Source: Oscillospiraceae bacterium (GTDB taxonomy: Bacteria; Bacillota; Clostridia; Oscillospirales; Oscillospiraceae). From it: a stretch of DNA of 64,000 nucleotides. The stretch covers positions 13 to 64,012 of the forward strand of contig CADCHN010000021.1 of assembly GCA_902801295.1 (NCBI GenBank). The letters are read 5' to 3'. A program made the translations under genes and the position numbers. The notes beneath the pieces are model-generated. The model was not told where the DNA came from and made no database searches. It saw only the letters and a program-made list of their open reading frames with translations. Each line of letters starts with the position of its first letter. Within the stretch, counting starts at the first letter, position 1. This document shows, piece after piece, positions 4,960 to 20,458 of the stretch.

Positions 4960-4972
4960 GTGTTTTTCCTCC

Positions 4973-6355
4973 TTATATTTCTTCCTTCTGCAATACCAGT
5001 TTGATCGCCCAGGGCGGCACGTCGTAGTTGTTCTGCCCGTCGTCCACGAAGACGAAGGCGGTCTCATAGTCCGGCTTTTTCGCCGGGAAAGTGCCGAAGC
5101 CGTCGGTGAAGTAGATGAGGCCTTTGAGATTTTGAAACTCCTTTTTCTCCCGCAGCCAGTCCACATAGGAGAACACCGGGCGGAAGTCTGTGCCGCCGAG
5201 ACCGTGGATCGTCATGTTCTTGAGGTAGGCGTCAAATTCCTCTTGCGAGGTGATCTTCGCGTCCTCCTGGATGGTTGCATCGCACTGAATGATGTGTACG
5301 TTGATCTTTGAGAAAAAGCTCTCGGTGCTTTTGAGGATGTTGTAAGTCTTTTGCAGGAAGGTCTGCACCTGCTCGCCCGCCACGGAGCCGGAGGTGTCGA
5401 TGGCGATCACGAACTCCCGGATACGCTTGACCTCCTTGTATTCCAGCGGCTCAATGAGCGGCATTTTTCTGTAGAGCTTCAGTCCGTAGGTGTAGTAGAC
5501 GTAGTCGAATTCCTCGTCGTTGATCTTCATGGCCTCGCCGCGAACGGCGAACTTTTTGAGGAAGGCCGTGTAGTCGTACTTCTCCCGGTTGACCTCCCGC
5601 AGGTTCTGCATCAGATTCCCGGCCCGGTCGCCCTGTTGCTTGGAAAAGGTCTCCATGTCCATCTGCATCTGGCGGGAGATCTCCGACCAGCGCGCCTCGG
5701 CAGCCGAGACGCCGAAGGGCAGAGAAGTGCCTTCCCCCTCTCCGTCGCCATCGCCCTCGCCGGGCTCCACCGAAACACTGACGGAAACCGGTCTGCCCAG
5801 TGCCAGCGCCCGCTCCGCCTCGCTCATGTACCAGAGACGGTGATCGTCGTTGTAAAACGCGCCGCGCAGCTCCGCGATTTTCTCCGGCGGCAGCTGCTTG
5901 TCCAGATAATAGCGGTAAATCTTCTCGGCGGTGAGCTGCTTGATCTCCTTCTGGAGCTCGGAATACACGCTCTTTTGCAGCAGCTCGCGCCGGGTGGTGG
6001 CCGCCTTGAGGCCGAGCCCCGCGATCACGTACTCCGCCGCGATGTCGCAGGCCAAATCCCAGACGTGGTGATCCACCAGCGTGTGCACAAACATGTGCCG
6101 GAACACGCCGTGCAGCACCATGTGGAGATAGGCGCGCGTGACCGCCTCCCGCTCGTCCCTGTACAGGCGCAGGACGTGGGCGGGATCGTAGGCCAGCGCC
6201 TCGCCGTCCGTGGCGAGGGTCAGGCCCTCCACAGCCAGCGGCTCGAGCTGATTGAGCGCCGCGTCCAGAAAGCGCAGATTCACCAGCAGCGTGTTGCGGC
6301 TCAGCCGCAGCACGTCGAGCGCCAGTTTATTTCGTTTTGAAACTTGTTCGTCCAT
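4973..6355 (-). CDS. vWA-like domain protein with N-terminal putative metallopeptidase domain (DUF2201 family)
   Basis: Start at MDEQVSKRN (ATG 6355). N-terminal YLHMVLHGVFRHMF region typical of DUF2201_N. C-terminal vWA/MIDAS-like FVIAIDTSGSV. First gene of the operon that ends with the MoxR ATPase. Confidence 0.75.
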   Translation of the reverse strand: MDEQVSKRNKLALDVLRLSRNTLLVNLRFLDAALNQLEPLAVEGLTLATDGEALAYDPAHVLRLYRDEREAVTRAYLHMVLHGVFRHMFVHTLVDHHVWDLACDIAAEYVIAGLGLKAATTRRELLQKSVYSELQKEIKQLTAEKIYRYYLDKQLPPEKIAELRGAFYNDDHRLWYMSEAERALALGRPVSVSVSVEPGEGDGDGEGEGTSLPFGVSAAEARWSEISRQMQMDMETFSKQQGDRAGNLMQNLREVNREKYDYTAFLKKFAVRGEAMKINDEEFDYVYYTYGLKLYRKMPLIEPLEYKEVKRIREFVIAIDTSGSVAGEQVQTFLQKTYNILKSTESFFSKINVHIIQCDATIQEDAKITSQEEFDAYLKNMTIHGLGGTDFRPVFSYVDWLREKKEFQNLKGLIYFTDGFGTFPAKKPDYETAFVFVDDGQNNYDVPPWAIKLVLQKEEI

Positions 6356-6489
6356 GTCGTTTTTCTGTGTAGGGGCTGCCGCCCTCGGCAGCCCGCATGA
6401 TCCCTTATGTGCGCACCGCGGAGGCACGAGGGCATGCCGCCCTTGTATAATGCAGTGAGGCCGAAGAAGAGGTATACTAGAGTACACGC

Positions 6490-7860
6490 TGTGGATTGGT
6501 TTCCTCCCTTCCGGTTCCGTCAGGAAACTGGTACCCGTAGGCTACAACCACAGTCTTGAATCTGAGAGTTGATGGGTTGGATAACACACGATGTTTCATT
6601 TCAGGCAAGGATACTTCTTTCAAGACCTGTGGCTGACGCAGCGTAATCTGTACAAGGAGTGAATTCCATGTTCTTCGTAGGCATTGACGTCTCTTCCGTG
6701 AAGCATGACTGTTGCATTCTGGATGGCAGTCGAAAAATGATTCGCTCGTTCATGATCCTGAACAGTCGGGAAGGCTTCTCCGCTTTGTCTGCCACGCTCA
6801 TCGAGCTTGCCGCCCCGGAGGATATTAAAATCGGGCTGGAAGCTACCGGCATCTATGGCGACAATCTCGCGCGCTTTCTGAGGCGTAAGGGATTTAATGT
6901 GTGCACCATTAATCCACTGTTATGCAAAAAGCATCAAAGTGCTACCACTCTCAGAAAAACCAAAAACGATCGTTCGGACGCGAAAAACATTGCGCTCATT
7001 GTTGCATCGGAGGACCTTCAGCCCGACCAACCATTATCTTACCATATTGTCGAGCTAAAGTCACTATCCCGCGCAAGATTTCTTACCGTAAAGGACCGTT
7101 CTTCCCTGAAAAACAAGGTTAAACGGCTTGTAACCGTTCTCTTTCCGGAACTGCTTGACGCGTTCACCGACCTGTTTGGCGCCTCGGGCATGGCACTGAT
7201 GACGCGTTATCCTTCGGCTAAGACTCTCGCTGCCTGCAATCTTGACACGCTTACCGAGCTTCTCAGAACCGCCTCCCGCGGTCGCTTCGGCCGGGAGAAA
7301 GCTGAAGCGCTCCGTAAGCTTGCCAAGGAGTCCATCGGCACCTTTTCTGATAGCGCTGTCTTTCAGCTGCGGCTGCTCCTTAAGCGTATTGAGCTTCTTA
7401 ACACTCAGATCGAAATGTATGACGATGAGATCCGTCGCTTGATGGATCAGCTCGACTCTCCGATTCTTTCTCTCCCTGGTATTGGCTATACTCTCGGCGC
7501 TATGATCCTTTCCGAGATCGGCGACATTAAGCGCTTTTCTTCTCCGGCTAAGCTCCTCGCTTTTGCCGGCCTTGAGCCCAGCGTATACCAGTCTGGCAAG
7601 TTCAACCCAGCCTCTGGAAAAATGGTCAAGCGTGGCTCACCTTTCCTTCGCTGGGCCCTTCTACAGGCTGCTACTTACGCCCCTGCTTTCTCCATTACCT
7701 TCGCTGCCTACTACGATAAAAAACGCTTAGAAGGGAAATCTCCCTCTGTTGCTCACTCTCATGTTGCAAAAAAACTCGTTCGTGTTATCTTCGCTCTTCT
7801 CTCCAAAAATGCCTCTTTTATTGACTCTTTTGCTGCTTGACTTTTCATAGTTGGTCTACG
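6490..7860 (+). mobile_element. IS110-family insertion sequence (boundaries approximate)
   Basis: Single DEDD transposase gene preceded by about 170 nt of structured non-coding DNA. No terminal inverted repeats seen, as expected for IS110. Lies between two unrelated minus-strand loci. Confidence 0.6.
6668..7840 (+). CDS. IS110-family transposase (DEDD_Tnp_IS110 + Transposase_20)
   Basis: MFFVGIDVSSVKHDCCILD N-terminus. C-terminal LSLPGIGYTLGAMILSEIGDIKRFSSPAKLLAFAGLEPSVYQSGK..KRGSPFLRWALLQAA. AGGAG RBS 8 nt before the ATG at 6668; the track ORF starts at a GTG at 6659. Confidence 0.9.
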   Translation: MFFVGIDVSSVKHDCCILDGSRKMIRSFMILNSREGFSALSATLIELAAPEDIKIGLEATGIYGDNLARFLRRKGFNVCTINPLLCKKHQSATTLRKTKNDRSDAKNIALIVASEDLQPDQPLSYHIVELKSLSRARFLTVKDRSSLKNKVKRLVTVLFPELLDAFTDLFGASGMALMTRYPSAKTLAACNLDTLTELLRTASRGRFGREKAEALRKLAKESIGTFSDSAVFQLRLLLKRIELLNTQIEMYDDEIRRLMDQLDSPILSLPGIGYTLGAMILSEIGDIKRFSSPAKLLAFAGLEPSVYQSGKFNPASGKMVKRGSPFLRWALLQAATYAPAFSITFAAYYDKKRLEGKSPSVAHSHVAKKLVRVIFALLSKNASFIDSFAA

Positions 7861-7956
7861 GTAAACACTTCTCTTCCTCCGATACCGCGTCACCGGGAAG
7901 CCGCACTCGGGGCAGGGCCAGCTGTCCGTTTTCGTTCCGCATCTCGGGCAAGTCAT
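7759..7956 (-). CDS. Small zinc-ribbon ORF whose 3' part runs into the IS110 right end (possibly truncated or altered by the insertion)
   Basis: MTCPRCGTKTDSWPCPECGFPV (two CxxC pairs) directly downstream of the WYL gene. From about residue 39 the ORF is antisense to the transposase 3' end. Confidence 0.3.
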   Translation of the reverse strand: MTCPRCGTKTDSWPCPECGFPVTRYRRKRSVYRRPTMKSQAAKESIKEAFLERRAKITRTSFFAT

Positions 7957-7968
7957 GTTCTTTTCCTC

Positions 7969-8940
7969 CTATTCCATCGCTTTCTTGACCAGTTCCGCAT
8001 AGGCATCTTTGACGCTTGGGGGGCCGAGGATCTTGATCTTTCCGCCGAACTCGAAGACCCAGGCGAAGAAGGTGGGGCTGACGGAGACCTCGGCGGTGAA
8101 GCTGAAGTGCTCCTCGTCGGCCTTCCTGACCTTGACCTTCTCGCCGAAGTGGTCCAGCACCGTATTCATCATAGTGTTCTCGCACAGCAGCTCCACCTGG
8201 GCGTGCTCGCTGTCGAAGAGCTGGAAAGCCTTTTCCGCGAAGTCCCCGATGCTGTACTGCTTCGGCTTCGGCACGGCCTTGTCCGGCAGGATCGTCGGCA
8301 CCTCGAAGATCCGGTCCACCCGGAAGGTGGCGATCTTCCCGTGCTTGTCCGACCAGCCCACCACGTAGTAAAAATCGCCGTTCCAGGTCAGCGTGTAGGG
8401 GCTGAGGGTGTAGGGCTCTCCGCCGTTTTTGAGCTGGCGGTGCTTCCTGCCGTCGTACTCGAAGTACAAAAAGCGCACCTTGCGCTTTAAATTGATGGCG
8501 TCGTTGAGCGCGTCCATGATGTAATAGATCTGTTCGTTGCCCGCCTTGACCCGGTCGGCAATGCTGATGTTGCGCCGCAGCTGCCCGGCCTCGTTGATAC
8601 TGGCCAGGGTCGTGAGCTTTTCGGTCAGCACGCGGCTCTTTTTCTGGGTAATGAACTTCGAGGACTCCACCGCGTCGATCAGAAGCTTCAGCTCCGGCAG
8701 CTCGAAGAGGCGGCCGGAGAGATAGTACTTGTTCTGGGTGGAGCGGATGGTCTCGATCTCATAGCCCGCCGCGCAGAGCGCGGCGATATCCTTCTGGATC
8801 GTGATGCGGTAGGCCTCCAGCCCCCAGCGCTCCCGCAGGGTGCGCTCGATCTCCACTGTGGAGATGGGGTGGCGCTCGTCGGTCTCGTTTCGCAGTAACT
8901 CCAGGATCCGGAGCATTCTCATCTTGCCGTCGCTTTCCAT
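7969..8940 (-). CDS. WYL-domain transcriptional regulator (HTH-WYL-WCX architecture, BrxR/CapW-like)
   Basis: Start at MESDGKMRMLRILELL (ATG 8940). N-terminal wHTH (RMLRILELLRNETDERHPISTVEI), central WYL-like core (PYTLTWNGDFYYVVGWSDKHGKIATFRVDRI), C-terminal extension. Confidence 0.85.
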   Translation of the reverse strand: MESDGKMRMLRILELLRNETDERHPISTVEIERTLRERWGLEAYRITIQKDIAALCAAGYEIETIRSTQNKYYLSGRLFELPELKLLIDAVESSKFITQKKSRVLTEKLTTLASINEAGQLRRNISIADRVKAGNEQIYYIMDALNDAINLKRKVRFLYFEYDGRKHRQLKNGGEPYTLSPYTLTWNGDFYYVVGWSDKHGKIATFRVDRIFEVPTILPDKAVPKPKQYSIGDFAEKAFQLFDSEHAQVELLCENTMMNTVLDHFGEKVKVRKADEEHFSFTAEVSVSPTFFAWVFEFGGKIKILGPPSVKDAYAELVKKAME

Positions 8941-8968
8941 GGGTGTTCCTCCTTTGTTGTAATGTCCG

Positions 8969-9031
8969 CCGTAGGGGCGCTTCACGAAGCGCCCGTTTTC
9001 TCTCGCGGGCCATTCGTGAATGGCCCCTACG
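8969..9031. repeat. Twin-hairpin palindrome in the WYL gene leader
   Basis: gggcgcttc-ac-gaagcgccc and gggccattc-gt-gaatggccc are each perfect 9-bp hairpins. They are bracketed by cgta...tacg, which makes a larger imperfect dyad. Confidence 0.6.
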
Positions 9032-9044
9032 AATGCCGGGGAAC

Positions 9045-9110
9045 GCAAAAAGGGACGCTCGAATCTGCCTATGCAATTCAAGCATCCCTTCTGTCAAATT
9101 ATTCTATTGT
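9045..9110 (-). promoter_or_regulatory. Conserved promoter/operator-like element, copy A (upstream of the WYL regulator)
   Basis: Shares a 24/24-nt identical block tcccttctgtcaaattattctatt (9085-9108) with 14366-14389 and about 70% identity over about 68 nt. Minus-strand TTGACA at 9092-9097. Imperfect GAAGGGA..TCCCTTC dyad. Confidence 0.55.
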
Positions 9111-9179
9111 CAGTTTACCAGAGTTGTCGAGGATTTGCAACAAAATGTTGGGCGGGAGGTGTTGAGGTTTTAGGACAGC

Positions 9180-9602
9180 TTATTCGTCGTCTTCGTCATT
9201 CCACCCAAGGTCTTCAAAACTTACTTGTTTTTCTTCTTTCTTTGCTTCGACACTAAAACTAACCCAATCGTCATCTGAAAGTCCAATTGCAAAAGATCCA
9301 TGAAGTTCAACAGAGGGAAACTCTTTTTTCAGCGATGCATAGTATTTTATTATCTCTTCATCTAAAAAATGACCTCGAGAGTATACAATATACCCGTGGC
9401 AATCTGATTCAATCTTATCGTCTTTGACGGTTAAATCAAAGATTCCAGCATGTCCATCTGCTGCTTGAAAAACTCCTGCCGGATTGAGCCCAGTGCCCGA
9501 ATAATCTTCCCGCTGTACATCGCCAAACATCTCCGCGTCTTTCGCACGCATCCAAGCAATGATTTCTTGCGTTTGCTCTTTTGCACAGATAATATCTACC
9601 AT
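9180..9602 (-). CDS. Hypothetical acidic protein (140 aa)
   Basis: ORF with a GGAGG RBS, preceded by a consensus-like promoter. AT-richer than its surroundings. Acidic C-terminus (EDLGWNDEDDE). No motif recognised. Confidence 0.5.
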   Translation of the reverse strand: MVDIICAKEQTQEIIAWMRAKDAEMFGDVQREDYSGTGLNPAGVFQAADGHAGIFDLTVKDDKIESDCHGYIVYSRGHFLDEEIIKYYASLKKEFPSVELHGSFAIGLSDDDWVSFSVEAKKEEKQVSFEDLGWNDEDDE

Positions 9603-9627
9603 CTCGCACCTCCAATGTTTTCAACCC

Positions 9628-9733
9628 TATGCTGTACTTCGAATTATAAATTGTAACATTTGGGAAGTCAATCGCAAATCGACCGAAGACGCTCAAAACC
9701 GCCGCAGGTGCGGCGGTTTTGCGACAGTATATC
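9628..9733 (-). repeat. Terminator-plus-promoter cassette, copy A
   Basis: About 105-nt repeat related to 12168-12277. Hairpin aaaaccgccgc-aggt-gcggcggtttt (9695-9720). Minus-strand TTGACT (9666-9671), 17 nt, TATAAT (9643-9648). Confidence 0.7.
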
Positions 9734-9738
9734 AGGCG

Positions 9739-10965
9739 TTATACCAGCGAATCGTCCAGCAGGAAGTCCAGAATGCCGATGTTCAGCACGCCGTTGTCGT
9801 CGTACCAGCGCTTGCGGATGTCGTGGCGTACGATGATCTTCGGGAAAGAGTCGCCGGTCAGGGACAGGGGCTTAACTTCCGCCGCCGCTTTTTCGTCAGT
9901 ATCCAGCGCATAGGCGGACTGGATATAGGTTTTCTTGCCGCCCCGCGAGGCAACGAAGTCGATTTCCCGGGCCACCTGGGCGCTCTGGCCTTTCCTGTTC
10001 TTCTCCGCACCGTAGACGATGCCGATATCCACCTCGCAGCCGCGCACGCGCAGCTCGTTATACAGGATGTTCTCCATGATGTGGGTCATTTCCTGCTGCC
10101 GGAAGCCGGTGCGGGCGCGGCACTCCTCGAACAGATAAGCGTCCGACAGGTGGCCGATATAGGCCGTGACCGTGTTTGCGGCGACGGTGTTTTCCCCCGC
10201 GCGCTTCTGCCGGGAATTCAGGGCGTTGGCGATGTTGTTCGGGTTGGTCAGTGAGCCGACTGAGGAGCAGAGCAGATCCAGCGTTGCACCCAGCACGTCC
10301 TCGCGCCGGATCTTTTTGCGCTCCACGATGTCCTTCAGATAGACCTCGGAAAAAAGCGATTTTAGATAATTCATCTTCGCCGTGTCGTCCGGGCGGGAGA
10401 GGATCAGCGGCATACCGCCGAAAAAGGCATAGTCCTCGAAAGCCTCCGCCTTGTCTCCGCCCACCGCCGCGTAATACTCCGCAAAGCGCAGCGGGTGGAC
10501 ACGGATCTCATCGCTGCGGCCGCGAAACTCGGTGAGGATATCGCTGGAGAGCATGCGGGAATTGCTGCCGGTCACATAGATATCCAGATTGTCCAGCGAT
10601 TTCAGATCGTTGAGCGCGTCGTAAAAGGTGATCTTCTTCCCGTCCGGATTGTAGGGGTTCGGCACCTCGTCGGACATCTGGATCTCATCCACGAAGAGAT
10701 ACCAGCGATCCGGCTGCCCCTCGACCCGCTCCCGCACGGCCTTCGCCAGCTCCAGCGGGTTGCGGTAACGGATATCTTTCGCCAGATCCAGCTCATAGCT
10801 GAGGATGTGATCCTCGGCCACGCCTTGCTCCAGCAGCCAGCGCTTGAAGATCGTGCGCAGCAGATAGCTCTTGCCGCAGCGGCGGATGCCGGTGATGACC
10901 TTGACCTGCCCGTTCCACATATAGGAAATGATCCGATTCAGATAGATGTCGCGTTTGATATCCAT
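9739..10965 (-). CDS. AAA+ ATPase with C-terminal DUF4143 (AAA_14/DUF4143 family)
   Basis: Start at MDIKRDIYLNR (ATG 10965, AGGAGG RBS). Walker A ITGIRRCGKSYLL, Walker B LFVDEIQ. C-terminal part matches the restriction-endonuclease-like DUF4143 arrangement (EIDFV). Confidence 0.8.
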   Translation of the reverse strand: MDIKRDIYLNRIISYMWNGQVKVITGIRRCGKSYLLRTIFKRWLLEQGVAEDHILSYELDLAKDIRYRNPLELAKAVRERVEGQPDRWYLFVDEIQMSDEVPNPYNPDGKKITFYDALNDLKSLDNLDIYVTGSNSRMLSSDILTEFRGRSDEIRVHPLRFAEYYAAVGGDKAEAFEDYAFFGGMPLILSRPDDTAKMNYLKSLFSEVYLKDIVERKKIRREDVLGATLDLLCSSVGSLTNPNNIANALNSRQKRAGENTVAANTVTAYIGHLSDAYLFEECRARTGFRQQEMTHIMENILYNELRVRGCEVDIGIVYGAEKNRKGQSAQVAREIDFVASRGGKKTYIQSAYALDTDEKAAAEVKPLSLTGDSFPKIIVRHDIRKRWYDDNGVLNIGILDFLLDDSLV

Positions 10966-11177
10966 AGAAACCTCCTGTTGAGAACTTGTTAAGTCTATTA
11001 TACAACTTCTCAACAAGAATAATACACTTTACCAATGCTCTTGTCAATGCCGCTGTTGAGAAGTTACGAAAAATATTAGCCAACTTCTCAATAATGTTCC
11101 AGACGAACACGCCGGATTTTCCCGACAGTCGAGAAAATCCGGCGTGTTGTGATCTATCGAACTGTATTAGCCGGGGT

Positions 11178-12143
11178 TTACTGCTCTTCCAAAGCTTTTT
11201 TGTAATCCAGCAGTTCGGCGGTCAACTCAGCGTCATTATATGCTGATCCAAGATCGAAGAAGACGGAATAGGATTCTGCGCTGATACACTTATTAGTCAG
11301 CAGTTCACGAAGCTCCATTCTGTTTTCCGCGGAGAAGATCTCTGTGACGAATTCAATGGCCGCTTGATCCCCTGCGGCCGCTGCTTTCAAATAGCAATCC
11401 CAGGCTTTGTTCAGATCCTTCTCGACGCCTGCAAGTCCTGTCTCGTAAAGCATACCAAGATCCAAAAGTCGGGCCGAATCGTCCGTCCCTGTTATGGTCA
11501 GGGCAAGGAGCTCTGCCAAGGATTCTTTTTCAGATTCGATGCACTCCTGCAGGTATTCCTCATCCCCGACAATGTTTCCCTCATTATCTATTTGCATGGA
11601 TTCATAATCATGATCCTCATCTGAGAAATCATCCTCTTCCGGAATTATGTCTTCTTCCTCCGGGATTACATCGCTAAGATCAATCGTTTCTCCACATTCG
11701 GAGCAATCATAGGTTTCCCCAAATGCTTCCTCTTCGCCCACCAAAAGGCGGCAACCGCAATGAGGGCACTCAAAGGAATACATGATCTCATCCGCATAAA
11801 CCAATTCAGAACGGAAGCGCAAAGAACCGTTTTCAAACTCTATGTCATTGATCGACTCGTCCCCACCGCCGACCTCTTCCTTCATAAAGGTATAATATCT
11901 GAAATTCGCTTGGGGCAAAGCTCGGGCGAGTGAAATAAAGACCCCTTCGTCCACATCGTCCCATCCGTTTACATCCGTCAGCCAGCTAAAAACCAGAGCA
12001 TCCTCCGTATTTTCCTCAACGAAACCATTTCTATGCCTGAAATGGCCGTCATATCCGGTCAGCAAACTAAACAATCTATAGTGGATCTTTCCTTGCCTGC
12101 GTGTTCCGCTAAAGCCGCCTTCAAATCGGGAATCTACACTCAT
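11178..12143 (-). CDS. Hypothetical protein with an internal zinc ribbon, a very acidic linker and a C-terminal Sel1-like repeat
   Basis: 321 aa. CPHCGC..17..CSECG. DLSDVIPEEEDIIPEEDDFSDEDHDYE. LGMLYETGLAGVEKDLNKAWDCYLKAAAAGD. Confidence 0.55.
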   Translation of the reverse strand: MSVDSRFEGGFSGTRRQGKIHYRLFSLLTGYDGHFRHRNGFVEENTEDALVFSWLTDVNGWDDVDEGVFISLARALPQANFRYYTFMKEEVGGGDESINDIEFENGSLRFRSELVYADEIMYSFECPHCGCRLLVGEEEAFGETYDCSECGETIDLSDVIPEEEDIIPEEDDFSDEDHDYESMQIDNEGNIVGDEEYLQECIESEKESLAELLALTITGTDDSARLLDLGMLYETGLAGVEKDLNKAWDCYLKAAAAGDQAAIEFVTEIFSAENRMELRELLTNKCISAESYSVFFDLGSAYNDAELTAELLDYKKALEEQ

Positions 12144-12167
12144 GACACTCCGTCCTTCCTGTTTTTT

Positions 12168-12277
12168 CAGCTATCGCTGTACCTCAAATTATATATATAT
12201 ATATTCAAAGTCAACCGCAAATCGCCCCAAAACGCCCAAAACCGCCGCAGGTGCGGCGGTTTTGCGACAGTATTTGG
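12168..12277 (-). repeat. Terminator-plus-promoter cassette, copy B
   Basis: Same hairpin aaaaccgccgcaggtgcggcggtttt (12238-12264) and flanks (gcgacagtat; caaatcg; TTGACT box) as copy A. An (AT)n tract replaces part of the spacer. Confidence 0.7.
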
Positions 12278-12302
12278 CTTCTTCCTCAAGGGAAAGGCTT
12301 TT

Positions 12303-12488
12303 TCAGAACACCGCGACCCATTGACGGCAGCGCGGGCAGGTACCATGGGGATAGGGCACGGGGATCACCTCATAGTTTTCAAATTCCCACACGATGCCGC
12401 AGTTGGTGCAGGTGCCGACGAAGGTGCCGTGATCCGTCGGGCCGTTCTGGTAGTTGTTGTCTGCGCCGCCGTATTGATCGTCAAACAT
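12303..12488 (-). CDS. Small zinc-ribbon protein (61 aa)
   Basis: Start at MFDDQYGG (ATG 12488, GGAG RBS), 17 nt after the stop of the Sel1-repeat gene. CTNCG...CPRC. Confidence 0.4.
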   Translation of the reverse strand: MFDDQYGGADNNYQNGPTDHGTFVGTCTNCGIVWEFENYEVIPVPYPHGTCPRCRQWVAVF

Positions 12489-12504
12489 CGTCTTGCTCTC
12501 CTGT

Positions 12505-14298
12505 TCAAAACAGTTTCCCGCTGCCGTAGATCTCACTCGGGATGTAATCCCAGCCAAGGCGTTTCTTCATCTCGGGCTTGGTGGCGTCGATGTGAATGCG
12601 CACCTCGATCACGGGATTCATGCGCTTGCTCTCCAGCCTAGAATAGGGAACGGAAGTGATGACCTCCGCCGCATAGGGGATGCCCTCGGCCAGCAGATCC
12701 TTCAGCCAACTGTCTGAAGAAACGTCACCCACGTCGCCGGCTGCCGTCACGAAGTCGATGCGGCTGCCGTCATCGCTCATCCGGAGCGTCACCTGATCGC
12801 CCACGTTCACGCGCTCGCTGCGCTCCTTGCGGTCGCCCTTTTTGGTGTTGGTGAGCTTGCATTCATAGTCCGGCATCGGGCCCATCTCGGCGCGCAGCTG
12901 CTCCAGCATCTCAACGAACTGGGGGTCTCCGCTCTCCGCCGCCTTGCTGAGCCACTTTTCGGCCTGCACCTCGTCCTTTTCCACACCGCTTCCCTGCATA
13001 TAGAGAAGCCCGATGATGCCCGCCGCCTCGGAGTCGGTTTCACTCAGTTCCTCCAGCAGGGACATGGCGCGCTCCCTGTCTACACCGTGATCATAAACCT
13101 TTTCGCCCTCAAAATAGCAGGCGAAAGCGTAGGCCTTGATGGCGCCCGGGTCTCCGTCCTCGATGCCCTCCAGCAGCTCGTCCATGTCGTAGTCCGGCTC
13201 TTTTACGGCAGGCTCCTGGCCAAAGGCCACGTTCACCAGATCGTTGGCCTGCAGATAGCTGAAGAAGCTCATGAGCTCAATATCCGGGGGCAGGGTGCCC
13301 TCGTCGATCAGCTGCTGCCGGTAGCGGTAGAAGTGGGCCATGCTGGACGCCCGCTCGTCGCCAAGCTCGGCCGCCCGGTCGTACCAGAAGATGGACTTCT
13401 CATAGTCAGAGGGGTCGAGGTTAATGTACTGCACCGCGAGCTGGGCAGCCACACGCACGTCGCCCGGCTCCTTTTCCTCCGCCTTGAGCAGATAGCCGAT
13501 GATCCGCTCAACCGGCATGATGGGCCGCGGCTGGTTCCCGCTCTCCAGCGAAATGCTGGCCGCGGCAGCGCAATGGCCCTGCTCGGCTGCCTTGATGGCC
13601 CATTCCAGGGCAGCGTCGTCATCCTGCGGCACGCCGGAGCCGTTCTTGAAGCAGACCGCATAGCAGTACTGGCACTCGGGGCTTCCGAGCTCTGCACCGG
13701 CCTTGTACAGCTCCGCCGCCTTGACGGGATCCTTTTCCACGCCCACGCCGTAATCGTAGCGGGTTCCAAGGCAGTGATAGCCCCGGGGGCAGCCCTGCTC
13801 CACTGAGCGCTGCGCCATCTCAAAGGACTCTTTCTTGTTTTCCTCGCTGGGGTAATTGGCCAGCAGCGTGGAGAATCGGGCCTGGGCCTCCGCGTCCCCC
13901 GCATAGGCTTTCTTTTCAATCTCCGGCGCATCCTTCAGAATCTTGAGCTGGCCGGGGGCGTCCGCGTCGCCGTTTTCAGATGCAAGCTCCATCCAGCGAA
14001 TGGCCTCGGTAAAGTCGCGCTTGATGCCCTCGCCGCGGGCGCACTGGATGCCCATATTGTACTGAGCCACCGGCTCGTCCAGATCGGCTGCCATGCAATA
14101 ATACTCCACGGCCTTCACCGGGTCGCGCTCCACACCGTCCCCGGTCAGGTAGGCAAAGCCCATCTGGAGCATGGCCTCCGGGTCGCCGCTCTCAGCGCCC
14201 ATGTGTTCCCAGAACAGGTCGCGCTTGAATTCGCCGGTCACAGGATCCTTGTAGCCTGCTTTGAAGCTGATGATTCCTCCGTTGTCATTGTTCGGCAT
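12505..14298 (-). CDS. Sel1-like repeat (SLR/TPR-family) protein with a distinct C-terminal about 120-aa domain (weakly HIRAN-like)
   Basis: 597 aa. Many units of the type GDPEAMLQMGFAYLTGDGVERDPVKAVEYY. The C-terminal NVGDQVTLRMSDDGSRIDFVTAAGDVGDVSSDSWLKDLLAEGIPYAAEV fits a HIRAN-type pattern only loosely. Confidence 0.75.
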   Translation of the reverse strand: MPNNDNGGIISFKAGYKDPVTGEFKRDLFWEHMGAESGDPEAMLQMGFAYLTGDGVERDPVKAVEYYCMAADLDEPVAQYNMGIQCARGEGIKRDFTEAIRWMELASENGDADAPGQLKILKDAPEIEKKAYAGDAEAQARFSTLLANYPSEENKKESFEMAQRSVEQGCPRGYHCLGTRYDYGVGVEKDPVKAAELYKAGAELGSPECQYCYAVCFKNGSGVPQDDDAALEWAIKAAEQGHCAAAASISLESGNQPRPIMPVERIIGYLLKAEEKEPGDVRVAAQLAVQYINLDPSDYEKSIFWYDRAAELGDERASSMAHFYRYRQQLIDEGTLPPDIELMSFFSYLQANDLVNVAFGQEPAVKEPDYDMDELLEGIEDGDPGAIKAYAFACYFEGEKVYDHGVDRERAMSLLEELSETDSEAAGIIGLLYMQGSGVEKDEVQAEKWLSKAAESGDPQFVEMLEQLRAEMGPMPDYECKLTNTKKGDRKERSERVNVGDQVTLRMSDDGSRIDFVTAAGDVGDVSSDSWLKDLLAEGIPYAAEVITSVPYSRLESKRMNPVIEVRIHIDATKPEMKKRLGWDYIPSEIYGSGKLF

Positions 14299-14328
14299 GA
14301 TGACGTCTCCCTTTCCTATTTTTTCGCG

Positions 14329-14390
14329 CAGAAGGGACGGTGGAAGCGTCTATGCAGTTCCATCGTCCCTTCTGTCAAATTATTCTATTT
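14329..14390 (-). promoter_or_regulatory. Conserved promoter/operator-like element, copy B (upstream of the Sel1-repeat gene)
   Basis: Perfect 11-bp inverted repeat cagaagggacg (14329-14339) / cgtcccttctg (14364-14374) with a 24-nt spacer. Minus-strand TTGACA at 14373-14378. 24-nt block identical to copy A. Confidence 0.6.
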
Positions 14391-14472
14391 TCATTATAAT
14401 GCGCTGCCATATGATGCGCAACTGTTTTTTCGCCTCCAGCTGCTGCAAAAGAACGACAGTAGGAGCTTTGCC

Positions 14473-16335
14473 TTATAGCTTCGCAAAGATGATCTCCAGA
14501 TCCTCCTCGCTGGTGGGCATGGTTTCGAGGATGTGGTTGTCGATGGCGTCCAGCATGATCTGCTCTTTTTCCTTCAGCCGGTCATAGATAGCCTGATCCA
14601 TGGACCAGGGGCCGTCGTTGGTCTGATAGCCGGTCTCCAGGTAGTAATACTGGGTGTACTGCCCCTCCGGCAGACCCAGGCGATGGATGCGGTCCTTGGA
14701 CTGGAGCAGATGCACCAGGTTGTAGCTGTACTCAAAATACACCGCGTCGTGGCAGACGCTGTGCAGGGACACCGACTCCGCCAGCGTGTGGGGATTCGTC
14801 AGAAGGACCTGGATCTCGCCGCTGCGAAAATCGGACAAAATCTGCTGGCGTTCCTCCAGCGGCACCTCGCCGTAGACGCAGCGGCAGCGGACGCCGCGCT
14901 TTTCCAGCTCTGCGGAAAGGCGGTGAATGGAGTCGATGAAGATGCACCAAAGGATAACTGGCTTGCCCTCCTGCGTCAGCTTCTCCGTCAGCTCCACGCA
15001 TTTGCGGAATTTGGACGGCACACCGCAGCCCTCGATCAGAGCGCGGACCTCGCCGCTGTAGTCGGCATAGTCGATCTCGTCAGCGTCCACGCTGTCGTCC
15101 AGCAAATATTCAAAGTTCTTGAGGCTCAAGTTCTCCAACAGGGCGCGGGGATTGGATTCCAGCTGCAGGATGCGGATCAGCAGCGCCAGCTTGTTCTTCT
15201 TATACTTCATGGACAGGATCTTCAAGATCCGGTTCTCGTCCGGCGTGGCCTCCGTCGGCACCATGGTGTCGGGATTGGCACGGGGGACGCCCAGCTGATC
15301 CTTGGTGGTGCGGCAGAAGAAGGGCTGCAGCTTGTCGTTGACCGCCTGCACGTCCTGGACCGCGGGCTTGCGGAGCTGAGCGGGCGTGAAGCCGAAGAAT
15401 TCCTCATACTCGTAGGGGAAGAGAATGTGCAGCAGGTTATACACGTCCGTATAGGCATTGGGCAGCGGCGTTCCGGTGAGGGCGATCACATAGGCCGCGT
15501 CCCTGGCCACGTTCAGGGCATGGGAGGCATACTCGCCGCCGATGCGCTTGACCTTGTGCACCTCGTCGAAGACCAGAAGCGTCCGATCCTCGGCCAGCGT
15601 CTTGAGAATGTCGTCCAGCTGCCCGACGGACTCATAATTGACCAGGATCAGGTTGCATCCGCCTGACTCGTATTCCAGCGCAGTGCGGCGATCCTTGGTA
15701 CCCTTGTAGGCCGGGTTGTGGATGTTCAGGACCCGCAGCGGCTCCTTCGCACCGAAGCAGGCCGTGAACTCGTCCATCCAGGAGCCGAAGGCGTTTTTCG
15801 GGCAAATGACCAGGATGCGTTTGACCGCGCCTTTGGCGGCAAGATAGGCATAGACGCCCAGCACCGAGGCCGTCTTGCCCGAGCCGGGAACGGAGAAGTT
15901 GGCGGACTTCTGCATGGCGCACATGAAGAAGCTGTCCCACATCTGCCGCTCCCGCAGGGGGCGCACCATTCTGCTGTCCACAACGGCTTTATATTTCTCA
16001 TAGCGCTCGGCCAGCTTGGGATCGTGGGCTTTCAGTTCCGCACCCAGGCGGGAGCGGATCTCGATGTGCATCTCTCTGGCGGCAATATAGTCCCGCAGGG
16101 CGTTGGACACCGTAAAGGCCGTGTCACGCTTTTCGCTTTCCCGGGTCACCAGATCGATGACTTTTTTGTAATCCAGGTAGGTTAGGGCGGGCTTGAAGCG
16201 CAGGAAGCCCGGCAGCGCCTCTTTCACATAGCGCCGCAGGAAGAGCTTATAGAAGCTCCCGGCCAGAAGGGCGTCCGTTTCCTCGGCAGGCAGACGCATC
16301 AGCAGCGCGCCGTCATAGTCCAGCAGCCACATCAC
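14473..16335 (-). CDS. SNF2-family helicase/translocase
   Basis: 620 aa. Walker A VPGSGKTA, DEVH box LLVFDEVHKV, LTGTPLPN, helicase-C motif VI QSKDRIHRLGL. The start overlaps the stop of the upstream gene (ATGA at 16332-16335). Confidence 0.85.
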   Translation of the reverse strand: MMWLLDYDGALLMRLPAEETDALLAGSFYKLFLRRYVKEALPGFLRFKPALTYLDYKKVIDLVTRESEKRDTAFTVSNALRDYIAAREMHIEIRSRLGAELKAHDPKLAERYEKYKAVVDSRMVRPLRERQMWDSFFMCAMQKSANFSVPGSGKTASVLGVYAYLAAKGAVKRILVICPKNAFGSWMDEFTACFGAKEPLRVLNIHNPAYKGTKDRRTALEYESGGCNLILVNYESVGQLDDILKTLAEDRTLLVFDEVHKVKRIGGEYASHALNVARDAAYVIALTGTPLPNAYTDVYNLLHILFPYEYEEFFGFTPAQLRKPAVQDVQAVNDKLQPFFCRTTKDQLGVPRANPDTMVPTEATPDENRILKILSMKYKKNKLALLIRILQLESNPRALLENLSLKNFEYLLDDSVDADEIDYADYSGEVRALIEGCGVPSKFRKCVELTEKLTQEGKPVILWCIFIDSIHRLSAELEKRGVRCRCVYGEVPLEERQQILSDFRSGEIQVLLTNPHTLAESVSLHSVCHDAVYFEYSYNLVHLLQSKDRIHRLGLPEGQYTQYYYLETGYQTNDGPWSMDQAIYDRLKEKEQIMLDAIDNHILETMPTSEEDLEIIFAKL

Positions 16336-17546
16336 AGATTCTCCCGCAGCTCGGCGATTACGGCCTCCAGCCGGTCAAGCTGCCGCTCGAAACGGCGCAG
16401 CTCGCTGTCGTTCATCTTCAGCAGAATATTGGCGTCGATATCGTCCAGGAAGCTGGTGGCCTTCTCGGCCAGCTGGATGGGGCGGTTGCGGGTCTCATTT
16501 TTCTTGACCTTGGTCGTGGCCTTCTCGAGGGAGCGATCCAGCGCCTCAGTGATCTCGGTATTGGTGCGGATCTCCTCCCGGATGCTCTCGCTGCTGACCT
16601 TGCCCACCGGCGGAAGGCTGTCCACGACCTGCATGGCCAGTTCCTGCTGCTCGGAGAGGAACTCCTCCTGATACTCGCTGCCTACGATGGCCTTGATGCT
16701 GCGGATATAGCGGGTCATGTCCCCGGAGGGCTTCATGAGAATGTTGGTAAAGACCGCGATCTTGATGTCCTCCGCCTCGTCCTCCGTGCGGCACTTTTTC
16801 ATCAGCCGTGCAAGCTCCTCCAGAGGGAAAACTACCTGCAGGTCGCGGGCAATATAAAACTGCTTCGGCGCGTTAATGAATTCCAGGAAGTCCACCATAA
16901 GCTGGGCTGTCTCCATACGGGATCTTACCTGAGCGGGCGTCTCGTTGGTGCTCTTGGCATATTCCTCAACGGTCAGCAGCCCGGTGTCGATGATATCGTT
17001 GTACACGCCGACCAGCCGATCCACGGGGTTGTAGTCCACGCGGGCCTCTTCTCCGTGCTGGATCGACAGCTCCAGCATTTTGATCTGCTTGGCGCTGTGC
17101 TCGATGCTGTGATCGAGGATGACGGTCTCAAAGTACCCAAAACGGGGATTCTTCTGCTGCAGGCGGCGCAGACAGGTGAAGCGGCGGTTGCCGTCGATGA
17201 TGCGCCCGTCGCACAGGATCACGCCCGGTTCCCGCTGATCCACCATCTCGATGTTGTTCTGGGTCTTCTTGATGGCGTCCGGATTGCTTTCGATGATGAA
17301 CTGTTCGATCAGGGCGTTGTAGGCCTCCCGATCGGCGGAGCTTGGCGCCTGGCCGCCGTGCTGGGACTTATACTGACTGATCCAGGTAGCGATGCGGTCG
17401 TTCTGATCGTTGTAAAAGAGCTGATCCAGCTTTACCTTATAGACAGGGTAGGCCTTGGTGATGCCGTCGATGGTCAGCTTGCGGCTGAGCGTGGTGGGTT
17501 CCACAAGGTGCAGGGCGAGGCCCTCGGTCAACAGATTCATGTTCAT
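16332..17546 (-). CDS. ParB/Srx-fold (ParB N-terminal-domain-like) protein
   Basis: 404 aa. VKLDQLFYNDQNDRI (ParB box-I-like) and ILCDGRIIDGNRRFTCLRRL (DGxxR box as in ParB/DndB/DUF262). Helical C-terminal half. 4-nt overlaps with both neighbours. Confidence 0.6.
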   Translation of the reverse strand: MNMNLLTEGLALHLVEPTTLSRKLTIDGITKAYPVYKVKLDQLFYNDQNDRIATWISQYKSQHGGQAPSSADREAYNALIEQFIIESNPDAIKKTQNNIEMVDQREPGVILCDGRIIDGNRRFTCLRRLQQKNPRFGYFETVILDHSIEHSAKQIKMLELSIQHGEEARVDYNPVDRLVGVYNDIIDTGLLTVEEYAKSTNETPAQVRSRMETAQLMVDFLEFINAPKQFYIARDLQVVFPLEELARLMKKCRTEDEAEDIKIAVFTNILMKPSGDMTRYIRSIKAIVGSEYQEEFLSEQQELAMQVVDSLPPVGKVSSESIREEIRTNTEITEALDRSLEKATTKVKKNETRNRPIQLAEKATSFLDDIDANILLKMNDSELRRFERQLDRLEAVIAELRENL

Positions 17547-20236: not shown

Positions 20237-20269
20237 CGAACCATCCGCCTTCCGTCAGCATTTCAAATG

Positions 20270-20298
20270 ATTATACCATGCTGGGAAAGAAATGACAA
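20270..20298 (-). promoter_or_regulatory. Sigma-70-type promoter for the 897-aa/ParB-like/SNF2 operon
   Basis: Minus strand TTGTCA (20293-20298), 17 nt, TATAAT (20270-20275), about 35 nt upstream of the GTG start. Confidence 0.55.
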
Positions 20299-20362
20299 AA
20301 GATATTTTAGCCTATTTGGCGAGATGCTGAAAAACTTCAACAGCTCAAGCTCAGACTGCAAC

Positions 20363-20383
20363 TTTGAAACAAATAATTTCAAA
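20363..20383. promoter_or_regulatory. Palindrome TTTGAAA-n7-TTTCAAA (candidate repressor operator)
   Basis: Perfect 7-bp arms immediately upstream of the -35 of the S24-repressor promoter, in the divergent intergenic region. A second dyad, ctgtttc (20399-20405) / gaaacag (20428-20434), brackets the -10. Confidence 0.4.
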
Positions 20384-20389
20384 AAAGAA

Positions 20390-20418: not shown

Positions 20419-20458
20419 CTTTTCGCAGAAACAGTCTGTTCTGTTTTGGAGGGGCCTT

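What the first reader, a model, noticed from the sequence alone, without database searches (positions are those of the whole stretch)
9045..14390. The WYL regulator gene and the Sel1-repeat gene share the same promoter/operator element
Seen in the sequence:
- 9045-9110 (upstream of the WYL gene) and 14329-14390 (upstream of the Sel1-repeat gene, in the gap after the SNF2 gene) align over about 68 nt.
- They share an identical 24-nt block, tcccttctgtcaaattattctatt, which contains a minus-strand TTGACA -35 box, and a common ctatgca core.
- Copy B has a perfect 11-bp inverted repeat, cagaagggacg / cgtcccttctg, whose arms bracket the core promoter. Copy A has an imperfect version.

Established knowledge: WYL-domain HTH proteins (BrxR, CapW) are autoregulated repressors that bind dyads at the promoters of BREX, CBASS and other defence operons, and release them on a stress or infection signal.

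Inference: the WYL protein probably autoregulates and co-regulates at least the Sel1/zinc-ribbon unit. That would tie the 8-14 kb genes to the SNF2 triad as one regulated island.
Basis: partly seen in the sequence, partly recalled or inferred. Interest (0 to 1): 0.65.

Follow-up and report, generated by a model that had tools for sequence, protein, structure and literature searches.

The report
Shared promoter-leader hairpin of WYL operons
The two look-alike stretches are real copies of a conserved control module (a promoter followed by a transcribed hairpin) that precedes WYL regulator genes in rumen Clostridia and has been reused in front of a neighbouring Sel1/zinc-ribbon operon. The hairpin lies downstream of the promoter and is too long to be a typical WYL operator.

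Summary
An exact 24-mer (0 expected by chance) and an alignment of about 80 nt link 9040-9120 (5' of the HTH-WYL-WCX gene) with 14321-14401 (5' of the Sel1-597/Zn-ribbon operon). Both genes are on the minus strand.

There are 31 distinct instances from rumen Oscillospirales. All but three lie directly 5' of a WYL gene. The three exceptions each drive a Sel1/Zn-ribbon unit 5-6.5 kb upstream of a WYL gene, so the link between WYL and Sel1/Zn-ribbon recurs.

The promoter reading does not hold:
- TTGACA is not conserved.
- The conserved promoter is an extended -10 (TGnTAWAMT) with a GTTGCR -35, upstream of the 24-mer.
- The dyad therefore lies at about +13 to +58 of the transcript.
- It is a 45-46 bp palindrome that pairs down to a 4-7 nt apex. 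92.6% of cells are paired and 14 of 16 pairs show compensatory changes. A U-rich tail and the Shine-Dalgarno sequence (SD) follow.
- Known WYL operators are 19-27 bp.

My best reading is a transcribed leader stem-loop acting as a leaky terminator or insulator. A likelier WYL operator is the DriD-like CAACA-N3-TGTTG palindrome overlapping -35, which copy B lacks. WYL binding remains untested. The SNF2 triad lacks the module.

The parts
9040..9120 (-). Copy A of the promoter-leader module (extended -10 through hairpin and tail), 5' of the WYL gene
   Evidence: Covariance-model hit, 76.0 bits, full length; alignment with copy B
14321..14401 (-). Copy B of the promoter-leader module, 5' of the Sel1-597/Zn-ribbon operon
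   Evidence: Covariance-model hit, 74.8 bits, full length
9112..9120 (-). Extended -10 TGGTAAACT of the WYL promoter. Predicted transcription start is near 9105 (inferred).
   Evidence: TGnTAWAMT sits in the same alignment columns in all 31 instances
9135..9140 (-). -35 TTGCAA, 17 nt upstream of the -10
   Evidence: GTTGCR is conserved in WYL copies and in second copies
9048..9092 (-). Hairpin A: 5' arm 9076-9092, apex 9065-9075, 3' arm 9048-9064
   Evidence: -27.9 kcal/mol, z = -5.6 as minus-strand RNA; -18.3 kcal/mol on the other strand
14329..14374 (-). Hairpin B: 5' arm 14358-14374, apex 14346-14357, 3' arm 14329-14345
   Evidence: 17-nt arms, 94% complementary; -28.5 kcal/mol, z = -7.6
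14393..14398 (-). -10 TATAAT of copy B, with -35 TTGCGC at 14416-14421. Predicted transcription start is near 14386 (inferred).
   Evidence: Same register as the -10 of copy A in the alignments
9138..9150 (.). Palindrome CAACA-TTT-TGTTG overlapping the -35 of the WYL promoter. Candidate WYL operator. Absent from copy B.
   Evidence: Conserved in WYL copies of the close family; CGACA-N3-TGTCG in L019 and L021. Resembles the DriD site CGACA-N5-TGTCG, which overlaps -35 (PMC10853764, PMC13004042).
9125..9142 (.). Palindrome TGTTG-N8-CGACA in the -35/-10 spacer of the WYL promoter
   Evidence: Exact match to TGTYG-N8-CRACA; conserved in orthologues
9160..9177 (.). Upstream palindrome TGTCC-N8-CAACA, at about -55 to -72
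   Evidence: conserved in orthologues
14441..14458 (.). Weaker palindrome TGTCG-N8-CAGCA upstream of copy B's -35
   Evidence: One mismatch to the pattern; a similar site lies upstream of the SNF2-triad promoter at 20325-20342
8971..9030 (-). GC-rich nested palindromes inserted between hairpin A and the WYL Shine-Dalgarno sequence. Absent from copy B.
   Evidence: the whole-leader fold is -78.6 kcal/mol
7969..8943 (-). HTH-WYL-WCX regulator gene (324 aa)
   Evidence: Pfam WYL 3.9e-14, WCX 6.3e-7, HTH_11 0.007. Closest PDB sequences are five WYL-domain entries (E 4.5e-5 to 1.8e-4), of which 8tp8 is verified as DriD.
12505..14298 (-). Sel1-repeat protein (597 aa), first gene behind copy B
   Evidence: Pfam Sel1, 6.8e-51
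12303..12488 (-). 61-aa Zn-ribbon ORF, second gene behind copy B
   Evidence: 78% identical to the L004 56-aa ORF and 75% to part of the L012 338-aa ORF. Both lie in operons driven by a second copy of the leader.
6659..7840 (+). IS110-family transposase inserted between the WYL gene and its usual downstream partner DUF2201 (4973-6487)
   Evidence: Pfam. Absent in same-species contigs L223, L225 and L226.

Best explanation
The shared element is a compact promoter-plus-leader module.

Layout:
- The promoter is a sigma-70-type extended -10 (TGnTAWAMT) with a GTTGCR -35.
- Transcription starts about 7 nt after the -10. That is roughly at the first bases of the exact 24-mer (inferred).
- The dyad is therefore transcribed. 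It forms a 17-20 bp stem-loop at about +13 to +58.
- A pyrimidine/U-rich tail (YUUYU-GCR-U-rich) follows, then the Shine-Dalgarno sequence.

Proposed function (inferred, not shown): the hairpin acts in cis as nucleic-acid structure. I think it most likely works as a leaky intrinsic terminator or insulator. It would stop read-through from the upstream cassette and throttle the strong promoter. It may also affect mRNA stability or translation.

Distribution: the module is the standard 5' region of one family of HTH-WYL-WCX genes in rumen Oscillospirales. Cassette recombination has placed it in front of Sel1/Zn-ribbon operons beside those genes, so both units share one post-initiation control point.

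WYL protein's own operator: this is more probably the short CRACA/TGTYG palindromes around -35 of the WYL promoter. They are DriD-like in half-site and position, and copy B lacks them.

How sure: that the hairpin itself, rather than a protein half-site pair, is the selected feature, about 0.75. The terminator/insulator role specifically, about 0.3-0.35.
For: - Promoter position: TGnTAWAMT is present in the same columns of all 31 distinct instances, 14-28 nt upstream of the stem. TTGACA is not conserved.
- Structure: 92.6% of cells are paired, against 77.2 +/- 1.1 in shuffles (0 of 500 reach it) and 45-58% when partners are slid. 14 of 16 pairs show double changes.
- An independent MAFFT/RNAalifold run on 13 sequences gives 10 of 16 pairs with compensatory changes.
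- Pairing is kept in both the outer and the inner stem, down to a 4-7 nt apex. A single WYL dimer covers about 20-27 bp, so it cannot explain this (PMC9122588, PMC9122601, PMC10853764).
- Copies A and B in the same genome differ in the inner stem (GCUUGAAU versus GAUGGAAC), yet each keeps its pairing.
- Stability: -28 kcal/mol, z = -5.6 and -7.6.
- G.U cells outnumber A.C cells 53 to 9 on the sense strand.
- In loci without an insertion the stem ends 7-11 nt before the SD. The tail is U-rich and the SD stays unpaired in whole-leader folds.
- No other terminator-like site lies between the SNF2 stop codon and the Sel1 start codon on the minus strand.
- Arm sequences of this kind occur as ordinary terminator-like stems in unrelated viral contigs.
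- Recurrence: second copies in the window, L012 and L004 all head operons containing the homologous Zn-ribbon module, with a long Sel1 protein in the window and L004.
Against: - No transcript ends were mapped. The metatranscriptome data are contigs only and break at the palindrome.
- Strand asymmetry is not robust. RNAfold finds the sense strand more stable in only 20 of 32 cases, and copy B folds better as antisense (-33.7 versus -28.5 kcal/mol).
- The U-tract is interrupted and poor in copy B (UUCUGCGCG).
- No alternative antiterminator structure fits in the 12-20 nt before the stem. A regulated attenuator would therefore need an unknown trans factor.
- The outer stem is conserved in sequence (AGAAGGGAC, GAAAGGAC or GGAGGGC) and is similar between the two copies within a genome. 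This would also fit recognition by a protein.
- In BrxR of E. fergusonii the operator also lies between the -10 and the start codon (PMC9122601).
- The alignment used for the pair counts was fitted to the model.
Confidence: 0.5

Rival explanations
1. The dyad is the DNA operator of the WYL protein, which is the reader's idea with the geometry corrected. A WYL dimer, or two dimers, would bind the palindrome just downstream of the -10 and block promoter escape. This would repress both its own operon and the Sel1/Zn-ribbon operon until a signal such as ssDNA releases it. The RNA hairpin would then be an unavoidable by-product.
For: - The element is strictly associated with WYL genes across 59-98% protein identity.
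- There is a precedent. BrxR R-BOX1 lies between the -10 and brxR, and a second R-BOX lies upstream of brxA in the same island (PMC9122601).
- The outer arms are conserved in sequence and are similar between the two copies within a genome: window AGAAGGGA, L012 GAAAGGAC.
- WYL homologues without the hairpin carry Q or N where hairpin-bearing ones carry K, R or S in the presumed recognition helix (YRITIQ-K-DI). This rests on few independent lineages.
Against: - The palindrome is 45-46 bp with pairing selected along its whole length. Measured wHTH-WYL-WCX sites are 19-27 bp: BrxR 10-11 + 5 + 10-11, CapW 19-24, DriD 20-21 (PMC9122601, PMC9122588, PMC10853764).
- The centres of the conserved outer arms are about 35 bp apart.
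- The inner stem differs between copies A and B in one genome, yet stays self-complementary.
- The 5' side of the apex (GGAAYUGCAUAR) is conserved without its complement in several lineages. That is not dyad-symmetric.
- L097 and L098 have the same recognition helix as the window but different arms, AGGAGGGCRG.
- A better-fitting candidate operator exists around -35.
Confidence: 0.27
2. The similarity is only a footprint of cassette shuffling. Copy B would be a leader carried along when a Sel1/Zn-ribbon cassette recombined out of another WYL operon, with no present regulatory meaning.
For: - Copy B is closer to the WYL leaders of L004 and L007 than to copy A. The second copy in L012 is nearly identical to the WYL leader of L017.
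- The copy B + Sel1 + Zn cassette is present or absent among strains: an RNA contig joins 12270 directly to 14477.
- A second duplicated terminator-promoter module (D12) shows that the region is built from modules.
Against: - The transferred copies keep the promoter, the full pairing and the tail. They are the only promoters available for their operons.
- The same arrangement arose in three genomes.
- Both copies are invariant in 14 loci fetched from 8 same-species contigs in different rumen samples, of 22-23 contigs read that carry the cassette proteins.
Confidence: 0.1
3. The stem encodes a short leader peptide. The 5' arm would act as its Shine-Dalgarno sequence, with an NUG start inside the stem (for example MELHRRFHRPFCAKK* in copy B). 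Translation of this peptide would open the hairpin, giving translation-coupled attenuation.
For: AUG, GUG or UUG sits at the same stem position in many instances. Several of these small ORFs stop at or just before the main SD (sequences, read by eye).
Against: - No start codon is present in L007, L016, L100, L101, L104 or L138.
- A start codon is found at that position about as often as chance predicts.
- The apparent peptide conservation follows from the nucleotide pairing constraint.
Confidence: 0.05

Closest known systems
BrxR R-BOX1/R-BOX2 of the E. fergusonii pEFER defence island (PMC9122601)
   Same: A wHTH-WYL-WCX gene has an inverted repeat between its -10 box and its start codon. A second related box sits in front of another operon of the same island. 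Autoregulation plus co-regulation is the proposed logic.
   Different: The R-BOX is 11 + 5 + 11 bp (27 bp), and its spacer is not self-complementary. Here the palindrome is 45-46 bp and pairs to the apex with compensatory changes. BrxR binding has been shown by EMSA. Nothing has been shown here.
DriD operator of Caulobacter crescentus (PMC9186387, PMC10853764, PMC13004042)
   Same: The verified DriD entry 8tp8 is among the five closest solved sequence relatives of this WYL protein, all annotated as WYL-domain proteins or, for 8tp8, a DeoR-family regulator (E 4.5e-5 to 1.8e-4 over the WYL-WCX region). The WYL promoter carries CAACA-N3-TGTTG overlapping -35 (CGACA-N3-TGTCG in L019 and L021). The DriD site is CGACA-N5-TGTCG and also overlaps -35.
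   Different: The spacer is 2 bp shorter. Copy B lacks it. DriD is an activator, and the direction of regulation here is unknown.
CapW palindromes at CBASS promoters (PMC9122588)
   Same: A WYL-family regulator with a palindromic site at its cognate promoter.
   Different: CapW sites are 19-24 bp, overlap the -10, and serve divergent genes. Here the dyad lies downstream of the -10, is twice as long, and the genes are co-directional.
Leader intrinsic terminators (attenuators) and 5' stem-loop mRNA stabilisers of Firmicutes (own knowledge)
   Same: A GC-clamped stem flanked by an A-rich 5' side and a U-rich 3' side, placed between the promoter and the SD.
   Different: There is no competing antiterminator fold. 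The U-tract is interrupted. The stem begins about 13 nt from the predicted 5' end rather than at it. No Rfam family matches.

Membership tests
wHTH-WYL-WCX transcription regulators (the protein 7969-8943) | WYL domain | tested here: met
   Pfam PF13280, E 3.9e-14, above the cut-off; PADLOC WYL, 1.2e-27
wHTH-WYL-WCX transcription regulators (the protein 7969-8943) | C-terminal WCX dimerisation domain | tested here: met
   Pfam PF25583, E 6.3e-7, 30.1 bits against a cut-off of 23.9
wHTH-WYL-WCX transcription regulators (the protein 7969-8943) | N-terminal winged HTH | tested here: inconclusive
   HTH_11 reaches only E 0.007, below the cut-off. The conserved YRITIQKDI...RSTQNKYY stretch looks like a recognition helix plus wing. 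No structure was predicted.
wHTH-WYL-WCX transcription regulators (the protein 7969-8943) | Binds a palindromic operator; responds to ssDNA or another ligand | not testable with these tools
   Needs EMSA, footprinting and ligand assays
BrxR/CapW-type operator (the dyad) | Palindrome of about 19-27 bp matching one wHTH dimer | tested here: not met
   The dyad is 45-46 bp and paired throughout. Reference sizes come from PMC9122601 and PMC9122588.
BrxR/CapW-type operator (the dyad) | Overlaps the -10, or lies between the -10 and the regulator's start codon | tested here: met
   The stem starts 14-28 nt after the conserved extended -10
BrxR/CapW-type operator (the dyad) | A second box in front of a co-regulated operon | tested here: met
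   Copy B in the window; second copies in L012 and L004
DriD-type operator (CRACA/TGTYG palindromes at the WYL promoter) | CGAC-N7-GTCG palindrome overlapping -35 | tested here: inconclusive
   CAACA-N3-TGTTG (equivalent to CAAC-N5-GTTG) overlaps -35 and is conserved in the close family; CGACA-N3-TGTCG in L019 and L021. The spacing differs by 2 bp. TGTYG-N8-CRACA occurs 14 times against 6.4 expected.
Intrinsic terminator / leader attenuator (the hairpin) | Stable GC-rich stem-loop | tested here: met
   -28 kcal/mol, z = -5.6 and -7.6; conserved with covariation
Intrinsic terminator / leader attenuator (the hairpin) | Uninterrupted U-tract directly after the stem | tested here: inconclusive
   Tails are U-rich but interrupted: UUUUUGCGUU in A, UUCUGCGCG in B, UUUUUGCUUUUU in L019. 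The consensus terminator scan did not call them.
Intrinsic terminator / leader attenuator (the hairpin) | Alternative antiterminator fold, or a known antiterminator binding site | tested here: not met
   Only 12-20 A-rich nt precede the stem. Whole-leader folds show no competitor.
Any curated RNA family (Rfam 15) | Match to a covariance model | tested here: not met
   No match with E <= 1 in 7800-20600 on either strand

The most novel reading that the evidence does not exclude
The stem-loop is a previously undescribed class of cis-regulatory leader RNA dedicated to WYL-headed conflict/defence operons. It would be read by a trans factor, possibly the nucleic-acid-binding WYL-WCX part of the regulator itself. 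One protein would then control initiation through a DriD-like DNA site and elongation or translation through the RNA hairpin. Cassettes such as the Sel1/Zn-ribbon unit would join the regulon simply by acquiring the leader.
Probability: 0.12. Interest if true: 0.7.

Novelty: new variant of a known kind. Interest (0 to 1): 0.42.

Why it matters
WYL regulators are emerging as the switches of many defence islands. Their known operators are short palindromes in Proteobacteria. This work defines a sequence-and-structure module, with a covariance model and 31 instances, for a large family of uncultured rumen Clostridia.

The module has three uses:
- It marks the 5' end of WYL operons.
- It shows which neighbouring cassettes share their control.
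- It separates two candidate control layers: a DriD-like site at -35 and a transcribed hairpin.

It also corrects the island model for this window. The WYL gene belongs with the downstream DUF2201/LRR-BRCT/SIR2/MoxR genes, from which a polymorphic IS110 now separates it. It does not belong with the SNF2 triad.

If the hairpin proves to be a regulated RNA element, that would add a post-initiation layer to WYL-controlled immunity.

Tried and rejected
Rejected. TTGACA is not conserved and the -10 is poor.
- **TAGAAT inside the 24-mer as a -10, with TCGACA or ATGGCA as -35.** Possible as a secondary promoter in the window lineage only. It is not conserved elsewhere.
- **ECF-sigma-like reading GGAAC-N17-CGTC inside the hairpin.** The spacer varies from 17 to 20 nt, and 'CGTC' changes in step with the other arm. 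Rejected.
- **Leader peptide inside the stem.** Six lineages have no start codon. Kept only as a 5% rival.
- **SD sequestration by the 3' arm.** Whole-leader folds leave the SD free.
- **Strand-asymmetry test for RNA versus DNA.** G.U to A.C is 53:9, but the sense strand is more stable in only 20 of 32 cases. Reported as suggestive only.
- **Metatranscriptome runs for 5' ends.** Only assembled contigs are available, and they break at the palindrome. Not informative.
- **Rfam.** No match.
- **Viral contigs scanned for the arm patterns.** 49 loci were found, but the model finds no true copy there. The hits look like ordinary terminators.
- **Literature search for an RNA motif upstream of WYL genes.** Nothing relevant.
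- **Recognition helix versus arm sequence.** Mixed signals, too few independent lineages.

Full report
**Observation**

The window carries the exact 24-mer TCCCTTCTGTCAAATTATTCTATT twice, at 9085-9108 and 14366-14389. No shuffle gave any match, even with three mismatches allowed. The similarity extends over about 80 nt. A covariance model matches 9040-9120 and 14321-14401 end to end. Copy B has 17-nt arms at 94% complementarity and copy A has 15-nt arms at 87%.

All genes here are on the minus strand:
- an 897-aa protein with two RNAP alpha-CTD domains and sigma-70 region 4 (17543-20236)
- a 404-aa protein
- an SNF2 helicase (14473-16335)
- copy B
- Sel1-597 (12505-14298)
- a 61-aa Zn-ribbon ORF (12303-12488)
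- a Sel1/Zn-ribbon protein of 321 aa
- an AAA_14/DUF4143 protein
- a 140-aa ORF
- copy A
- the HTH-WYL-WCX gene (7969-8943)

**Origin and relatives**

The sequence comes from a rumen bacterium. DNA runs holding it are bovine and sheep gut metagenomes. The closest species representative is Ruminococcaceae bacterium RUG11086: 96% WYL identity and 92-94% nucleotide synteny over the SNF2 triad, the WYL promoter, the WYL gene and DUF2201. The WYL protein has thousands of homologues. I fetched 173 related loci through exact-protein look-ups, one genome scan and one metagenome scan.

**Where the promoter is**

Orthologous WYL upstream regions keep the element, but TTGACA is not conserved. L007-L010 read GATATTTTAGAAGGGA at that place, and most other lineages have nothing like it. 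What is conserved, in the same alignment columns of all 31 distinct instances, is an extended -10. It reads TGGTAAACT in copy A, TATAAT in copy B and TGnTATAAT in most others. A GTTGCR -35 lies 17 nt upstream.

The exact 24-mer begins about 3 nt before the predicted start site, and the stem starts at about +13. This start site is inferred and was not mapped. The arms therefore do not bracket the core promoter. They lie in the transcribed leader.

**What the dyad is**

The palindrome is 45-46 bp and pairs down to a 4-7 nt apex.
- On 31 distinct sequences, 92.6% of cells form standard pairs. Column shuffles give 77.2 +/- 1.1% (0 of 500 reach the observed value) and slid partners give 45-58%. Of 16 pairs, 14 show changes on both sides.
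- That alignment was fitted to the model. An independent MAFFT/RNAalifold run on 13 sequences already gave 10 of 16 compensatory pairs.
- The outer 9 bp are conserved in sequence (AGAAGGGAC, GAAAGGAC or GGAGGGC). The inner stem varies freely but stays paired.
- Copies A and B of this one genome differ in the inner stem (GCUUGAAU versus GAUGGAAC), and each keeps its own complement.
- The 5' side of the apex (GGAAYUGCAUAR) is conserved without its complement in several lineages.

Measured operators of wHTH-WYL-WCX dimers are much shorter. BrxR uses 10-11 + 5 + 10-11 bp (PMC9122601), CapW 19-24 bp (PMC9122588) and DriD 20-21 bp (PMC10853764). A single dimer cannot explain selection for pairing along 45 bp. 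A long palindrome is also not two adjacent palindromes. I conclude that the hairpin itself is the selected feature.

Evidence on which strand matters is only suggestive. G.U cells outnumber A.C cells 53 to 9 on the sense strand, and copy A folds at -27.9 kcal/mol in sense against -18.3 in antisense. However, the sense strand is the more stable in only 20 of 32 sequences, and copy B prefers antisense.

**What follows the stem**

The 3' arm ends in YUUYU. A GCR and more U follow, then the SD 7-11 nt later. Four lineages are exceptions, including copy A, where a GC-rich structured insertion sits in between (8971-9030). The SD stays unpaired in whole-leader folds. No other terminator-like site lies between the SNF2 stop and the Sel1 start on the minus strand.

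The arm patterns by themselves occur in unrelated viral contigs as ordinary terminator-like stems. The model finds no true copy there. No Rfam family matches. Together this fits a leaky intrinsic terminator or insulator in the leader. That role is inferred.

**Is it tied to WYL, and to the Sel1 unit?**

In about 2.1 Mb of WYL-homologue (related) loci, every strong hit lies directly 5' of a WYL gene, with three exceptions:
- copy B in the window
- L012 4643-4726 (59.5 bits), 5.3 kb upstream of that locus's WYL copy
- L004 3508-3589 (33 bits), 6.4 kb upstream

All three head operons that contain a homologous Zn-ribbon module. The window 61-aa ORF is 78% identical to the L004 56-aa ORF and 75% identical to part of the L012 338-aa ORF. 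In the window and in L004 the operon also carries long Sel1 proteins. The L004 unit (547 aa plus Sel1-1154) is homologous to genes that in L011 follow the WYL gene inside one operon (46-50% identity).

Copy B resembles the WYL leaders of L004 and L007 more than copy A. The second copy in L012 is almost identical to the WYL leader of L017. The leaders therefore moved by recombination between WYL loci. An RNA contig that joins 12270 to 14477 shows strains lacking the whole copy B + Sel1 + Zn cassette. The functional link between the WYL and Sel1/Zn-ribbon units is thus well supported by comparison. Who reads the shared element is not.

**A better candidate for the WYL operator**

WYL copies, but not the second copies, carry short palindromes around -35:
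- CAACA-TTT-TGTTG (9138-9150), overlapping -35
- TGTTG-N8-CGACA (9125-9142), in the spacer
- TGTCC-N8-CAACA (9160-9177), further upstream

These are conserved in orthologues, and L019 and L021 have CGACA-N3-TGTCG. The pattern TGTYG-N8-CRACA with at most one mismatch occurs 14 times in the window against 6.4 expected. Five of those lie in promoter regions of the island, including weak matches upstream of copy B (14441-14458) and of the SNF2-triad promoter (20325-20342).

The closest solved relatives of the protein by sequence are five WYL-domain entries (E 4.5e-5 to 1.8e-4), among them 8tp8, which the paper confirms is DriD. The DriD site is ATACGACAGTTACTGTCGTAT and overlaps -35 (PMC10853764, PMC13004042). 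This is a lead, not a test. The spacing differs by 2 bp, and part of the pattern was derived from the very sites it scores.

**The island model**

The WYL gene's conserved neighbours are downstream: a small ORF, DUF2201, LRR_5/BRCT, and MoxR or DUF4132 proteins. In the window these are DUF2201 (4973-6487), LRR_5+BRCT (2779-5166), SIR2_2 (1858-2763) and a MoxR-like AAA protein (341-1852). An IS110 element (6659-7840) separates them from the WYL gene. That element is absent in same-species contigs L223, L225 and L226.

Upstream neighbours vary: the SNF2 triad in L001 and L014, Sel1 genes in L004, an integrase in L007. The triad's promoter has no copy of the module. The element therefore does not tie the SNF2 triad to the WYL gene.

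**Verdict**

The finding is real and more interesting than a chance repeat, but the proposed mechanism needs revision. The shared element is a promoter-plus-leader module with a conserved transcribed stem-loop. A leaky terminator or insulator role is my best guess. WYL binding to the double-stranded dyad, in the manner of a BrxR R-BOX, remains a live rival at about 0.27.

It is a new variant of a known kind of arrangement: a regulator gene and a neighbouring operon sharing a box. It occurs in an unstudied lineage, has a structure not found in Rfam, and I found no description of it in the literature searched.

Noticed in passing
9665-9730 and 12208-12273 (minus strand): A second duplicated regulatory module, 92% identical over 66 nt. 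It is a terminator hairpin (AAAACCGCCGCacctGCGGCGGTTTT) followed directly by a TTGACT-17-TATAAT promoter. One copy lies 5' of the 140-aa ORF and the other 5' of the 321-aa Sel1/Zn-ribbon gene. Two copies also occur in L014, and a similar one in L025.
   Followed up: partly
8971-9030: Nested GC-rich palindromes (GTAGGGG...CCCCTAC enclosing two 9-bp hairpins) are inserted between hairpin A and the WYL SD. The element is unique in the window. Insertions with different sequences sit at the same place in L014 and L025. Its function is unknown.
   Followed up: partly
6659-7840 (+): An IS110-family element lies between the WYL gene and DUF2201. It is polymorphic: same-species contigs L223, L225 and L226 lack it and have the WYL gene followed directly by DUF2201.
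   Followed up: yes
17543-20236 (-): An 897-aa protein with two RNA polymerase alpha-CTD domains and a sigma-70 region 4 heads a conserved triad with a 404-aa protein and an SNF2 helicase. The architecture is unusual and suggests interference with, or mimicry of, the transcription machinery.
   Followed up: no
12270 / 14477: A metatranscriptome contig (run X35) joins 12270 to 14477 with 6 extra letters. It skips copy B, Sel1-597 and the Zn-ribbon ORF. The cassette is therefore present or absent among rumen strains. ACTGTCG motifs lie near both junctions.
   Followed up: partly
9125-9142, 9160-9177, 11054-11071, 14441-14458, 20325-20342: Palindromes of the form TGTYG-N8-CRACA cluster in the promoter regions of the island (14 in the window against 6.4 expected). 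They could be the real operator set of the WYL protein, or cassette-junction sequences.
   Followed up: partly
11010-11090 (-): Three copies of TTGAGAAGTT, two inverted and one direct, flank the TTGACA-17-TATTAT promoter of the AAA_14/DUF4143 gene. They look like an operator for some other regulator.
   Followed up: no
341-6487 (-): The cluster downstream of the WYL gene (DUF2201 VWA/metallopeptidase, LRR_5+BRCT, SIR2_2, MoxR-like AAA) looks like a conflict or defence system. In other loci the same WYL family sits next to SbcCD, LigA, HerA-like and DUF4132 genes.
   Followed up: partly
52603-52774: An 86-nt unit is repeated twice in tandem at 99% identity and contains an internal hairpin (GTTTTTGCCAGGGCAAAGCCCTGCCAAAAAC).
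   Followed up: no
L018, L037, L020, L023, L024 (WYL homologues, 61-68% identity): These homologues lack the leader hairpin but keep the extended -10 and the ACAGAAT...TATGCAT remnants. They carry Q or N instead of K, R or S in the presumed recognition helix (YRITVQ-Q/N-DI).
   Followed up: partly
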